Of a DNA stretch of 64,000 bases, positions 55,262 to 61,807 are shown piece by piece; within the stretch, counting starts at the first letter, position 1, and the number at the start of each line of letters is the position of its first letter. The stretch comes from Eledone cirrhosa. Its lineage: Eukaryota. A program made the position numbers and the translations under genes. The stretch lies in the NCBI GenBank assembly GCA_964016885.1, contig OZ024740.1, positions 199,144,001-199,208,000 of the forward strand, read 5' to 3'. The notes beneath the pieces are model-generated. The model saw only the letters and a list, made by a program, of their open reading frames with translations. It was not told the origin of the DNA and searched no databases.

Positions 55262-56540
55262 CTGGAAGTTTCTGCTAGGGATGGAATTAGTATTTCAGTA
55301 ACTCTGAATGTTCTTTGTGGAAAAAACAAGGTCAATGTTGATGATTTCTTCTGAGATAAAATATCAAGATAGATAATTTTAGAAGCAATCATGGTCAATT
55401 CTAAGGTAAACCGACTTTTCAAACCAATCCCAGGGACTTTCACAACAGTCTGCCATCACACCTATCCCCTTGCTCCTCCTTCTTCTCCTCACTCTTGTTC
55501 TGCTATCCTCTCCTCCTTCTTCTCCCCCAACTACTCCCAGTCAAAACCAAACTATTATCAGGGAAAGAAAGACAGACACAACAGGGAAATCAATTCTCCT
55601 CTCTGAATATGTATGTGAAAATTAATTGTGCTTCTCCTTTTTATTATTATTAATATTATTTTGATTATTTGTATAAATATGGAACAATATTATTCATATC
55701 TGTAATTGACAATCTAAACTATAACAAAGTAAGGAGTGGGCGACTGCGTCCAGAATATATTTGTTTATCCCGTTTGTAAAATAAGTTCGATTACTTCAAA
55801 TAAAAAATGAATGAACATTACATAATATAAATAATAATTTTTCGTATTTTAAGATTCACTTCTTTAAATTTTTCAAATGCCATCACTTCCGTTTAGCGAT
55901 CGCTTAAATAAACATTCATATATTTCCGTCACTAATTCTCTCCTAATGCAGATTATATATAATATCGTCTTTTTTTAATGTATTATGGATTACGTTACTG
56001 AGTACATAAGACAGTGTAACGCAGTCTTCGTTCAATTTCTGTGTATATTTTCAATTACGATTTTATTTGATGTATCATATCTACGTGCATATATACTTGC
56101 GTATTATATAAATATGCACACCACACGTGCCAGCAGAAAACCACGCGAAGCGTGGTTTTTCTGCTATTGCATATAATGCTGAAACTGGTATATTAAATAC
56201 GGAAATATCCACTTTGTAAATACATTATTGTTTTCATATTACACTGAAATAATCTCTTCACCATTTTCTACTGAAAAAATATTTTTCGTTTCTACTATTT
56301 GTTTATATATATATATATAGAGAGAGAGATAGATATATACATATATATATATATACATATATATATATATACATATATATATATATACACATATATATAT
56401 ATACATATATATATATATATACATATATATATATATACATATATATATATATACATATATACATATATATATATATATATATATATATAATAATGAAATG
56501 ACAGGAGGCTGGATTTGTGTAAATCCTTGAAAGGTTTATT

Positions 56541-56598
56541 ATACTATGATCATTTCAATGACCGGGTTCCGTATGAATCCGGTGATATCATCAGGTAT
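56541..56598 (-). ncRNA. Type I hammerhead ribozyme (inverted copy)
   Basis: Exact reverse complement of 56701-56758. Confidence 0.8.
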
Positions 56599-56700
56599 TC
56601 GAAATATAATACGTGAATGTAATAGGTAAAATCCATGGGGCTGAAAATCGATTTTCAGCCCCATGGATTTTACCTATTACATTCACGTATTAGATTTCGA

Positions 56701-56758
56701 ATACCTGATGATATCACCGGATTCATACGGAACCCGGTCATTGAAATGATCATAGTAT
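56701..56758 (+). ncRNA. Type I hammerhead ribozyme
   Basis: atac-CTGATGA-[tatcaccggattcatacggaacccggtcatt]-GAAA-tgatca-TA-gtat. Core is intact and stem III is palindromic; predicted cleavage after 56754. Confidence 0.82.
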
Positions 56759-57250
56759 AATAAACCTTTCAAGGATTTACACAAATCCAGCCTCCTGTCA
56801 TTTCATTATAATATTTAACTCCGTAATAGCACCACCAACTACAAAAACAAAGACGGTTGAACTGCTTTACGTTGAGTACTCTCTATATTATTGCATTACG
56901 ATTGACCATACGGAATAGACCAGCTCTATACAGTGGTGAACCTCAAACCTGAATAAATAACGCTCCTGAAATGTTGAGCACTTCAAAATGTAATAATCAA
57001 CAGCGGCATGGGACTGAATATATCTAACCACAATTCGAACTTTGGCTACCCGGTGCTTTCGCCTGGCCCTTTGCTACTCCCCTCACAGAATATCCGAACT
57101 TCGACGAAACTCCACGGACTGGACCATAACATGTATTGTACTGCACTGAATTAACTAAATGGCTACCCTATACTTCTGGGTATGTATAACTCACACTGAA
57201 CTCCCAGACTCAAACACGCACTGTTTCCACATCTATATGCATTATCTGAC

Positions 57251-57870: not shown

Positions 57871-58111
57871 AAAATTAAACATTACACGACTATATCCCGT
57901 ACTCTACATCCCACTAGGATAAATTACAGATCTACATAATACAATTAACGTTTCCTCATAAAAGACTATTTAATTAAACCCCGCAACCCAAAACCTCATA
58001 GAAGTTATTTGAATGTCTAATCTTCAATTTTCTGTTTGTTCAATTCTCAATCCTCTTACTCCTTAGTTTCATAATGTTATTCTGAATTCTTTCAACTTCA
58101 TCCGATAGAGT

Positions 58112-59130
58112 TAAGCAAAATTCTAAAGTTCCAACTTTCTGTCGGACCGTTGGGTGGGTTTTAGCGGCGGCGCGACCAGCTCCCTGGCGAACGGGCTCAC
58201 CTGGAGTGCTTGGAAAAATAAATTCCCCTTCTTTCGGTAAATGAAAATACTCGGCGTGGCTTAATTAGCCATGGGGCCCGGGGCGCGGCCGGTGCTTTAA
58301 CCGCCAAGTAGTACCTTTAAATTACAGAACAAATCGGAACTATTATATATATCAACCTGAAACTGTTGAGCTTTAAATTTTCTAACCTCTTTAATATGGA
58401 ATATTGATTATTAATTTATTAATTTTTTAACTTCATCCTATAAGTCTAAACATTGTAACACACTGACCCCCAATATATTCACCTCTGCTAAGATGCGAGT
58501 CCCTGTGAAAATTTTGTCGCGCCACCCCTGGCCCGACTGTGGTGTGACATTAATATCGACCTTCCTTCCTCTCTCTTTCTATCTTCCTTCTTGTAGCTAT
58601 CAACCATTACTCTTTTACTTCTCTAAGCTAAATTTTAAAGTCCCAACTTTCTGTCGGACTGTTGGGTGGGTTTTAATGGCGGCGCGACCAGCTCCCTGGC
58701 GAACGAGCTCACCTGGAGTGCTTGGAAAAATAAATTTCCCCTTCTTTCAGTAAATGAAAATACTCGGCGTGGCATAATTCGCCATGGGGCCCGGGGCGCG
58801 GCCGTTGTTTTAACCGCCAAATAGTACCTTTAAATTACAGAACAAATCGGAACTATTATATAATTAATTGTTAAACTGTTGAACTTTAAATTTTCTAACC
58901 TCTTTAATATTGAATATAGATTATTAATTTTTTTAACTTCATCCTAGAAGTCTAAACACTGTAAAACACTGACTCCCAATATATTCATCTCCGCTAAGAT
59001 GCGGGTCCCTGTGAAAATTTTCTCGCGCCACTCCTGGCTTGATTGTGGTCTGACATTAATATCGACCTTTCTTCCTCTTCCTTTCTATCTTCCTTCTTGT
59101 AGCCATCAACCCTTACTTTTCTACTTCTCT
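58112..59130. repeat. Internal ~510-bp tandem duplication (58112-58623 / 58624-59130) with a GC-rich ~190-nt block
   Basis: ccaactttctgtcggac..gggtggg..ggcggcgcgaccagctccctggcgaac.. occurs twice; paralogous ORFs at 58493 and 58999. Confidence 0.92.
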
Positions 59131-59502
59131 CTTCCCTTCCTTCTCTCCTCTCCTCCTCCCGCAGACTTATCTTCCTTCCCCCTCTTGCTTGCCTATATCT
59201 GACCAGTAGTAGTTACCTTCCTCTTTTAGCTGACATTAACCCTGACTTCTCTTCTTCTTTCTTCCCCCTTCTTCTCCTTCCTTTCTTTCTTTCTTTTACC
59301 TTGTGTCATGGGATCGACGTTAACCTATGCTCCCATCTCTCTCTGTTTTCGTTCATCTGACCGGTAGTAGCATACTATAAAATTTAGCCACGTCACTCCA
59401 GGGCCACCGGCTGAGGTTGAAGGAACAGAATAGCGGTCGCCCTCGGGTCTCGATTTTCAGCCCCATGGATTTTACCTATTACATTCACGTATTATATTTC
59501 GA

Positions 59503-59560
59503 ATACCTGATGATATCACCGGATTCATACGGAACCCGGTCATTGAAATGATCATAGTAT
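59503..59560 (+). ncRNA. Type I hammerhead ribozyme (3' pLTR copy)
   Basis: Identical to 56701-56758; predicted cleavage after 59556. Confidence 0.82.
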
Positions 59561-61807
59561 AATAAACCTTTCAAGGATTTACACAAATCCAGCCTCCTGT
59601 CATTTCATTATAATATTTAACTCCGTAATAGTACCACCAACTACAAAAACAAAGACGGTTGAACTGCTTTACGTTGAGTACTCTCTATATTATTGCATTA
59701 CGATTGACCATACGGAATAGACCAGCTCTATACAGTGGTGAACCTCAAACCTGAATAAATATATATATATATATATATATATATATATATATATATATAT
59801 ATATATATATATACATATATATAAACATATATATATATATATATATATATATATATATATATATATATATATATATAAACAAATAGTAGAAACGAAAAAT
59901 ATTTTTTCAGTAGAAAATGGTGAAGAGATTATTTCAGTGTAATATTAAAACATTAATGTATTTACAAAGTGGATATTTCAGCATTTAATATACCGGTTTC
60001 AGCATTATATATATATTCAGCATTATATATATATATATATATATATATATATATATATATATATGTATGTATATATAATATTATATTTATCTTATATTAT
60101 ATATTATATTTATCTTATATTATATATTACTATATATTATAATTGAAACGTGTTACATTTCGTTAATACAGTATATTAAGCGAAATGTTCACCAATCCTT
60201 ACTTTTGTTTGATTTTATTGTTTATATATCTTTACCACACCTGAAACCAGACGTATAGAAATTGCATAAAAAACATGCATTTCATATTATGTATTTTGAT
60301 ATCCGATCCATAGACTTCACTCATGTGAGAGTCGTCGTGTCATACATTGTATCTTGGCCATTTAAATACCCTTGTGCCCATCACTACCAGTACAAATGAC
60401 AACTGGTTTCTTTTAAACATAGACACATGTAGAGAGAGAAAGAAAAATATTAGCCGGTCAGGTACTTTATTTATCGACGTCGAATAAATAAAAGACAACA
60501 TTGATTTGAACAGAGGGCCTGATTAAAACTAGTAAAGCATTCTCTCTGCCATTCTAACGACTCTGCCAATTTGCGCCTATTCTTGTATTATACATTTCTT
60601 TAACTCACGTGTATTGTGCGAAAAATGTTATTTGTGAAGTGATTAGAACATCATTTATAGCGATAACCTACCTTGTATTTACCAAAGTACTTCATTTAAA
60701 GACAGTAAGTTAATAAAGTTAATACCTTTAAGTATATTTTATTAGTGCAACTACTTAACATTTTATAATTATATATTTTTGATCTCTAAGCGAAATATCT
60801 ATCTTTTAGAACTTCTTTTTAGTTATCTGTGATAAATTAATTATAATACAACGGATTCTGTAATTGTATTTAAGCATTCTAAATTCGAATTAAATAATGT
60901 TAGGTCTAGGTGTGATGTCACAGTTCTCATATAACGAATAACTTAGCTTCGTAGCCCAAACTGTGTAAGTTGTCATCTATATTAGAGATGAAATATACTT
61001 TGAACGCTAAATTCCCCTCCGTTTACGTTGTTTTCACATTCACTAGTCTGCGTCATATATCTGTCTACTTCAGTAAATTTAGACACAAATGATGGATAGT
61101 GTCTTAGATACAAAGGAATATTTAATGACCAGGCTGTATTAATTATCTATAAATCTTCAACAGGCATTAAAGATAAATTACTTACTTTACATTTGATAAA
61201 ACCGATATATTTAACATACATGTAGGTAAAATTAATTAGAAAAAACAGCGTTTCGATTGTGACAATAATCGAACGATTTCAGTTAATATTTCTCTCTCAC
61301 TCCTTCTCTCTTCTTTTGATATATATATATATATATATATATATATGGCCTGTCTATGAGATCAGAAATTGCTGCAGAGAATATATCCGATGTAAATCCA
61401 AGCTGCTCTTGTAGGATTAAAGAGGACGGCTCACTCTAAGAGAAATATAATACCGAATCCGATACACCCCCTCACACACACACACATTTACAAACACACA
61501 CAGACGCGTACGAATACACACACAGGTACGCATACATACATACACACATACACGCATATATATAAATATATATATATATATATATATATATATATATATA
61601 TATATATATATATATATATATATATATATCGCGTATTTTATTTTCTTGTTCAACTATTACATATATATATATATATATATATATATATATATATAGATAT
61701 ATTTATATATATATATATCGCGTATTTTATTTTCTTGTTCAACTATTACATATGTATATATATATATATATATATATAAATGAACATAGCAACATTTGGC
61801 CTTATTA

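What the first reader, a model, noticed from the sequence alone, without database searches (positions are those of the whole stretch)
56490..59761. Candidate giant (2.8-kb) non-coding hammerhead retroelement ('mega-retrozyme')
Seen: two 312-bp direct repeats (2 mismatches) 2802 bp apart, each with an intact HHR core followed immediately by AATAAA, an inverted partial copy at the 5' end, (TA)n on both flanks, and a body with no RT or GIY-YIG remnant. Known: this partial-tandem plus inverted pLTR layout is typical of PLE insertions, and described animal non-LTR retrozymes are mostly a few hundred nt. Inference: this is a recently mobilised non-autonomous RNA replicon that uses PLE RT in trans. 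Read-through transcription and double self-cleavage would release a 2802-nt monomer (56755-59556) that could circularise.
Basis: partly seen in the sequence, partly recalled or inferred. Interest (0 to 1): 0.85.

Follow-up and report, generated by a model that had tools for sequence, protein, structure and literature searches.

The report
Kilobase-size ribozyme parasite of Penelope transposons
This is one young copy of a family of 1.7-3.1 kb repeats that encode no protein, carry a predicted self-cutting RNA motif and sit in TA runs in the shape of Penelope retrotransposon insertions; their shared mutations show that one unit is duplicated within each insertion, likely by a borrowed Penelope enzyme copying a large RNA circle, which would be about three times the size of the largest such animal element in the surveys I read.

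Summary
The locus is one insertion of a large family: 5,759 hammerhead motifs genome-wide (control 4), and 40 hammerhead-to-hammerhead units of 1,696-3,102 nt with no RT or GIY-YIG trace. The layout is Penelope-like (PLE): partial tandems, a fold-back 5' arm, (TA)n targets. In 91 of 93 two-armed insertions one end is short (about +60 after the cut site) and the other long (about +205). This is the known PLE 'tail', here about 145 nt. Repeated parts of one insertion share locus-private mutations (25 against 0.12 expected), and a deletion junction found only three times in the genome lies wholly in one insertion. So one monomer is copied more than once. A hammerhead-made circle is the likeliest template (about 0.55); a strand transfer on a linear RNA is the main rival. 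Cleavage, circles and expression are untested, Rfam did not score the ribozyme, and no autonomous partner sharing the ends was found. Verdict: a large-unit variant of non-autonomous PLEs and animal retrozymes. The scan noted the same mechanism before, for 310-590 nt families in this and other genomes, but not for this sequence.

The parts
56304..56489 (.). left half of the (TA)n target
   Evidence: 172 of 194 family ends run into (TA)4
56490..56649 (-). inverted, 5'-truncated arm; its outer end is the short end (about +55 to +60 after the cut site); carries a third hammerhead core
56648..56959 (+). upstream partial unit (pLTR-like, 312 nt)
56701..56758 (+). type I hammerhead 1: stem I AUAC/GUAU, core CUGAUGA 56705-56711, long stem II with U.U at its base, GAAA 56743-56746, 2-bp stem III with palindromic loop, predicted cut after 56754
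   Evidence: cleavage untested
56755..59556 (+). predicted 2802-nt monomer (cut site to cut site), 40% GC, no ORF
57249..57594 (+). internal duplication, about 115 nt at 230 spacing, 91% identical
57685..57838 (+). 70-nt tandem repeat, 2.2 copies
58112..59130 (+). about 510-nt tandem duplication, 90% identical
58200..58254 (+). conserved 55-nt core, copy 1; predicted three-way junction; role unknown
   Evidence: covariation not significant
58712..58767 (+). conserved core, copy 2
59450..59761 (+). 3' pLTR-like repeat including the tail
59503..59560 (+). type I hammerhead 2, predicted cut after 59556
59617..59761 (+). about 145-nt 'tail' between the two fixed ends (short end about 59611-59616, long end about 59757-59761); inferred reverse-transcription start sites
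59755..59877 (.). right half of the (TA)n target

Best explanation
This is a non-coding repeat with Penelope-like insertion anatomy that is likely moved in trans by the RT and GIY-YIG protein of an autonomous Penelope-like element, most likely from a circular RNA monomer that its two hammerheads are predicted to cut out. Step 1 (inferred): a copy with a partial tandem is transcribed through both hammerheads. Step 2 (predicted, untested): the two hammerheads pair through their palindromic stem III, cut after AUA and release the monomer, which is ligated into a circle. Step 3 (inferred from insertion ends): the protein nicks both strands of a (TA)n run and primes two cDNAs, one from about +60 and one from about +205. 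Step 4 (shown at DNA level): both arms read across the cut site, derive from one source sequence, and can run past one unit length, which regenerates the partial tandem. Step 5 (inferred): the two 5'-truncated arms are joined head to head. Odds: non-autonomous PLE-type element about 0.95; monomer duplicated within an insertion about 0.9; covalent circle as the template about 0.55.
For: Dispersed young copies: 77 matches in 34 scored candidates, the best 97-100% identical, with different flanks; median 0.53% from the majority base in 24 near-full copies; 1,937 exact 50-nt cores and 5,759 motif hits against 4 control hits. No ORF or PLE-protein trace in 40 units. End rule: 91 of 93 two-armed insertions have one short and one long end, 2 short/short, 0 long/long. 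Private alleles shared by the tandem parts of one insertion: 25 against 0.12 expected (19 loci, 14,081 nt); by inverted arms: 24 against 0.14 (22 loci). A second set gave 12 against 0.36 (33 tandem pairs) and 26 against 0.62 (52 inverted pairs, not independent). L069 has 7 private shared alleles and 1 difference over 2,194 nt. The deletion junction of a 466-nt mini-unit occurs 3 times in the genome, all in insertion L237. 98 of 100 arms read across the cut site. Intact RT plus GIY-YIG ORFs of 900 aa or more exist in the genome, one family also ending in TA runs. The stem II U.U base with a 2-bp stem III matches axolotl HHR_Amex2 as described in PMC7229834.
Against: No RNA evidence either way. 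The active monomer fold scores -4.0 against an MFE of -14.9 kcal/mol; the double hammerhead scores -24.6 against -29.8 for two misfolded monomers. Rfam gave no hammerhead hit. In Poseidon from Anolis, hammerhead cleavage was not needed for insertion in vitro (PMC11167929); 8 of 9 Xenopus retrozyme dimers did not cleave in vitro. No arm of two or more full units was seen: 0 of 66 junction contexts had a second junction on the same arm (a 466-nt mini-unit arm reached 1.95 units). No autonomous element sharing the ends was found among 80 PLE loci. A nearest-neighbour comparison in 9 older loci did not favour same-template copying (93 of 3,431 within against 74 of 3,435 to the nearest other locus; this control is biased towards the neighbour). 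Some loci show no sharing (L063 0 shared and 20 unshared; L067 1 and 9).
Confidence: 0.55

Rival explanations
1. Same element class, but the template is a linear, terminally redundant RNA. The 5' hammerhead may define its 5' end. RT starts at +205 or +60, reaches the 5' end and transfers once to the 3' repeat of the same molecule, as in LTR strand transfer. No circle is formed.
For: It explains the shared private alleles and the L237 junctions equally well. No arm reached two units (0 of 66). Two short arms begin at the cut site (L280, L253). Uncleaved RNA was the main substrate for Poseidon in vitro.
Against: No pile-up of 5' ends at the cut site: 1 of 100 arms begins there and 1 has a 12-nt deletion next to it. 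Few arms of two units are expected under either model, because only about 135 of about 5,000 arms reach the first junction. Circles are shown for small animal retrozymes (PMC7229834).
Confidence: 0.3
2. Ordinary linear copying of read-through transcripts from tandem donor loci. The hammerhead is a passenger, and the likeness of repeats within a locus comes from gene conversion or unequal recombination after insertion.
For: Weak predicted hammerhead fold. Several loci have few or no shared alleles. One search was not supportive.
Against: Inverted arms share private alleles as often as tandem parts do (L068 10 shared and 2 unshared; L073 6 and 4). A 2.3-kb deletion is present in both orientations in one insertion and nowhere else. 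The core positions are kept in 117-125 of 125 distinct copies across subfamilies whose bodies are 70-85% alike.
Confidence: 0.1
3. A dead autonomous PLE whose ORF has decayed beyond recognition, a local satellite, or a misassembly.
For: The unit length is close to that of autonomous PLEs (about 3 kb, PMC6765202).
Against: Copies are about 99% identical and all lack an ORF, so the ORF-less form itself spread. No profile match in any subfamily, while controls were detected. Dozens of independent loci share the layout.
Confidence: 0.03

Closest known systems
Animal non-LTR retrozymes (Cervera and de la Pena 2020, PMC7229834, passages read; Li, Clavereau and Pollet 2026, bioRxiv 10.64898/2026.07.22.740005, parts 1-3 of 5 read)
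   Same: Non-coding, low GC, one type I hammerhead per unit, short palindromic stem III, U.U at the base of stem II as in HHR_Amex2, proposed dependence on PLEs.
   Different: Units here are 1,696-3,102 nt against 150-450 bp (2020) and 51-972 bp (2026; that screen capped the repeat period at 1,000, so it could not see these). Insertions hold fewer than two units per arm, not multimer arrays. Circles are shown there and untested here.
Non-autonomous Chlamys PLEs, MRC1 and Chlamys-N4 of Chlamydomonas (PMC8557442; bioRxiv 10.1101/2022.05.23.493040 and 10.1101/2022.06.16.496473; passages read)
   Same: ORF-less, form pLTRs and head-to-tail copies, target microsatellites, mobilised in trans.
   Different: Green alga and a different PLE clade. 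They generally resemble an autonomous partner at the 3' end, which I could not find here. I recall MRC1 as about 1.6 kb (memory, no call).
Canonical EN+ PLE insertions: Penelope, Adineta Pen2a and Pen3a (PMC3846280, passages), Poseidon_Ac (PMC11167929, parts 1-2 of 4)
   Same: Partial tandem, adjacent inverted pLTR with a palindromic junction, a tail at one end that marks two RT start sites, AT-rich targets, hammerhead in the pLTR. Adineta pLTRs also move unrelated cargo in trans, including non-coding cargo.
   Different: No RT or GIY-YIG ORF. The tail is about 145 nt against 30-40. The one-short, one-long rule is near absolute here (91 of 93), where the papers call the tail optional or often one-sided. 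The body is a heritable lineage with a conserved duplicated core, not a one-off capture.

Membership tests
Autonomous EN+ Penelope-like element | ORF with telomerase-like RT and GIY-YIG endonuclease | tested here: not met
Non-autonomous Penelope-like element | partial tandem forming pLTRs | tested here: met
Non-autonomous Penelope-like element | adjacent inverted 5'-truncated arm | tested here: met
   93 two-armed insertions
Non-autonomous Penelope-like element | tail extension at one end | tested here: met
   91 of 93; about 145 nt rather than 30-40
Non-autonomous Penelope-like element | AT-rich or microsatellite target | tested here: met
   172 of 194 ends, counted before 4 rows were dropped
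Non-autonomous Penelope-like element | no coding capacity, dispersed young copies | tested here: met
Non-autonomous Penelope-like element | 3'-end similarity to an autonomous partner | tested here: inconclusive
   none in 80 PLE loci drawn from 150 of 10,594 GIY-YIG candidates and 89 of 37,511 candidates of one family; sampling is thin
Non-autonomous Penelope-like element | mobilisation in trans by PLE protein | not testable with these tools
   needs an assay
Animal non-LTR retrozyme | type I hammerhead in each unit | tested here: met
   core and stems present and conserved in 125 distinct copies; not scored by Rfam
Animal non-LTR retrozyme | two or more consecutive hammerheads in tandem, non-coding, GC under 50% | tested here: met
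   40 units; 40% GC
Animal non-LTR retrozyme | short unit (150-450 bp; up to 972 bp) | tested here: not met
   1,696-3,102 nt (filter 800-3,600); one 466-nt derivative
Animal non-LTR retrozyme | self-cleavage in vitro | not testable with these tools
   fold energies only
Animal non-LTR retrozyme | accumulates as monomeric circular RNA | not testable with these tools
   no RNA holder listed
Animal non-LTR retrozyme | target site duplication when present | not tested
   cannot be read inside (TA)n runs

The most novel reading that the evidence does not exclude
A long-lived lineage of 2-3 kb protein-free circular RNA replicons in an animal genome, several times larger than surveyed retrozymes. 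A dimeric PLE enzyme copies one circle from two fixed start sites, one per DNA strand. A duplicated structured core in the body is an undescribed functional RNA or promoter module needed for the next round: the one mini-unit that lost it left no further copies.
Probability: 0.35. Interest if true: 0.75.

Novelty: new variant of a known kind. Interest (0 to 1): 0.5.

Why it matters
How PLEs regenerate their longer-than-unit tandems and their head-to-head arms is an open question. A circular template was proposed in 2014 (PMC4209133, passages) and is not shown in the papers I read. Because the unit is long and the copies are young, this family gives kilobases of overlap in which to see that both tandem parts and both arms come from one monomer, and it fixes two start sites about 145 nt apart. 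That yields exact junctions and primers for a circle test. It also shows that screens capped at 1-kb periods miss a size class of hammerhead elements.

Tried and rejected
Rfam: no hit at gathering score in the window; at E<=10 only hairpin or TA-driven chance hits. A DNA search with the 131-nt hammerhead region returned nothing because common words are skipped; pattern searches replaced it. Partner search: blastn and tblastn of the element against 50 GIY-YIG loci and 25 long ORFs gave only a nested copy of this family in L111 and low-complexity or chance matches (best tblastn E 0.022); 30 loci of a young autonomous family shared no end sequence. One search's profile step failed and was rerun. 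ADAR editing as the source of shared alleles: rejected, A>G 6 against T>C 13 of 48. Nearest-neighbour divergence test: uninformative or contrary. Internal core: 94.8% of cells pair, but only 2 pairs change on both sides, 33 of 500 shuffles reach that, and 396 of 500 reach the covariation score; folding z-scores are 0.1 and -2.2 for the two copies with flanks; no match in 80 PLE loci; by inspection it lacks CUGANGA on either strand, so it is not a second hammerhead. No tRNA. The sigma-70 scan is not relevant to a eukaryote. Literature: searches found no paper on a multi-kb non-coding hammerhead PLE in an animal (0 papers with Penelope, octopus, non-autonomous and hammerhead). Repbase and Dfam could not be searched, the Craig 2021 supplement held as text gave no match, and bioRxiv supplements were not seen; any of these could already list the family.
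Full report
Observation. The direct repeats are 56648-56959 and 59450-59761 (312 nt, offset 2802, two mismatches). A fold-back centred at 56649/56650 gives an inverted arm that pairs out to 56490. (TA)n lies on both sides. Each repeat holds a type I hammerhead motif: stem I AUAC/GUAU, CUGAUGA, a long stem II that starts with a U.U mismatch, GAAA, a 2-bp stem III inside the palindrome AUGAUCAU, and an AUA cut site after 56754 or 59556. 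Rfam did not score it at either threshold. Positions given as +n count from the first base after the cut.

A family, not a single locus. The 3.0-Gb genome gave 77 matches in the 34 scored of 2,690 candidates, many near full length and 97-100% identical, each with its own flanks. The exact 50-nt core occurs 1,937 times and a looser motif 5,759 times against 4 in the reversed control. At least 135 arms reach the junction between tail and body (exact pattern), so most copies are short 5'-truncated ends. In the loci I fetched, 40 distinct hammerhead-to-hammerhead units measured 1,696-3,102 nt; 18 of them, at 2,780-2,840 nt, belong to the window's subfamily. Near-full copies of that subfamily differ from the majority base by a median 0.53% (24 copies). 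Older subfamilies have bodies of about 1.9-2.1 kb that are only patchily 70-85% alike. Part of the window's length comes from internal duplications.

No coding capacity. The longest stop-free frame in any of the 40 units is 196 aa. A profile built from 22 PLE proteins of this genome found nothing in 240 frames (best E 2.4; reversed control 1.1), while it detected decayed PLE remnants in the same window at E 2e-7. Autonomous elements with RT and GIY-YIG domains are abundant, some with intact ORFs of 900 aa or more. None of the 80 loci examined shared end sequence with this family. The sample is small, so the partner is unidentified, not absent.

Two fixed ends. Arms end either at about +60 or at about +205, running into TA. 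One search listed 97 two-armed rows. I dropped 4 (L027, L044 and L055 are partial views of L069, L158 and L159; L252's main end was not seen) and rescored L248 as short/short. Of the 93 left, 85 have one short and one long end, 6 have one long and one short end slightly off the usual positions, 2 are short/short and none is long/long. The loci came from best hits and from the first entries of position-sorted lists, not from a random draw. The window follows the rule: the inverted arm is short and the main arm is long. This is the PLE 'tail', described as 30-40 bp and often at one end only (PMC8557442 and PMC3846280, passages) and mapped in vitro to two RT start sites (PMC11167929, parts 1-2 of 4). 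Here it is about 145 nt. The near-strict pairing suggests, by inference, that each DNA strand of the target is primed from a different site of one RNA-protein complex.

One monomer copied more than once. In 30 loci of the young subfamily, the upstream partial unit and the full unit of one insertion shared 25 alleles seen in no other sampled locus (19 loci, 14,081 nt; 0.12 expected; 47 unshared differences). Inverted arms shared 24 (22 loci; 0.14 expected). L069 has 7 shared private alleles and 1 difference in 2,194 nt. A second set of 44 mostly older loci gave 12 against 0.36 for tandem pairs and 26 against 0.62 for inverted pairs; there, rare alleles may also mark small lineages. A cruder nearest-neighbour test on 9 older loci did not support the idea, and some loci share nothing. 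The clearest single case is L237, a 466-nt mini-unit lacking about 2.3 kb of the body: its deletion junction appears twice in one arm and once in the other, and nowhere else in the assembly (3 hits). The window's own overlap is too short to carry such alleles (0 shared, 2 differences). The shared alleles show no A>G excess.

The cut site. Of the first 100 listed arms that hold +1 to +24, 84 also hold the 12 bases upstream exactly. Of the other 16, 14 read through with point changes, 1 has a 12-nt deletion next to the cut and 1 starts at the cut. One more short arm starting at +1 was seen in passing. So templates are mostly continuous across the cut: re-ligated, uncleaved, or bridged by exact strand transfer. 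No arm with two full units was found (0 of 66 junction contexts), but few are expected. In 125 distinct copies the core positions are kept in 117-125 and the U.U in 123; the next pair is A-U in 97, G.U in 25 and G-C in 2 (the set was selected by likeness to the window, so conservation is partly built in). The active monomer fold is predicted to be much weaker than a misfold (-4.0 against -14.9 kcal/mol). A double hammerhead narrows the gap (-24.6 against -29.8 for two monomers), in line with dimer-dependent cleavage (PMC4209133, passages).

A conserved core in the body. A 55-nt motif occurs twice per unit in the window and in the two older units read in full (58200-58254 and 58712-58767 here). 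It fits a three-way junction (94.8% of cells paired in 25 diverse copies, with several G-C to G.U changes), but covariation is not above shuffles and it was not found in 80 autonomous PLE loci. Its role is open: RNA module or promoter. The mini-unit that lost it did not spread, which is a single case.

Mechanism and odds. Shown: dispersal, lack of ORF, PLE-type anatomy, two fixed ends, duplication of one monomer within insertions. Inferred: transcription, movement by a PLE protein in trans, priming from both strands. Predicted and untested: cleavage and circularisation. I put the class at about 0.95 and the circle at about 0.55. One strand transfer on a terminally redundant linear RNA (0.3) fits the DNA evidence equally well. 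This particular copy has only about 107 nt upstream of its first cut site and may not be a source copy.

Comparison with what is known. It works like an animal non-LTR retrozyme and like the non-autonomous Chlamys PLEs. It fails the retrozyme size criterion (150-450 bp in PMC7229834; 51-972 bp in bioRxiv 10.64898/2026.07.22.740005, whose screen stopped at 1,000-bp periods). I file it as a non-autonomous PLE-type element, a large-unit variant. Nine literature searches found no description of such a family, but Repbase and Dfam were out of reach. Earlier notes of this scan report the same two-start, copy-round mechanism for 310-590 nt families, and some call the host a cephalopod, which I did not test; none matched this sequence. 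I had recorded the end rule and the shared-allele result before reading them. They are unchecked AI notes and I do not count them as support.

Verdict. Real, and well characterised at DNA level. A new variant of a known kind; interest 0.5, because it extends the size range about threefold and makes the circle question directly testable, while the key RNA steps remain unshown.

Noticed in passing
window 56171-56305 and 59876-60010: The flanks are two inverted copies (96% identical, 135 nt) of a short TA-associated repeat, so the element landed in the TA run between them; relatives lie in direct tandem in L283.
   Followed up: partly
L237 3230-4604: 466-nt mini-unit of this family; its deletion junction is present three times in one insertion and nowhere else in the assembly.
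   Followed up: yes
window 38805, and 62849/62857: Other hammerhead-like cores of an unrelated family; the pair at 62849/62857 lies on opposite strands; similar cores occur in L111, L115 and L120.
   Followed up: no
window about 30880-31194 (+) and 1270-1730 (-): Decayed PLE coding remnants (GIY-YIG-like and RT-like), used as positive controls.
   Followed up: partly
L284-L313: A very young autonomous PLE family with many intact 900-905 aa ORFs, a 3,127-nt tandem period, its own minimal hammerhead and TA-run ends; a candidate driver, but no shared sequence.
   Followed up: partly
L111 5600-6073: A short two-armed copy of this family sits in a TA run next to the 3' region of another RT plus GIY-YIG PLE.
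   Followed up: partly
L280 about 330-390 and L253 2605-2668: Two short arms whose 5' end lies at the predicted cut site; too few to be significant.
   Followed up: partly
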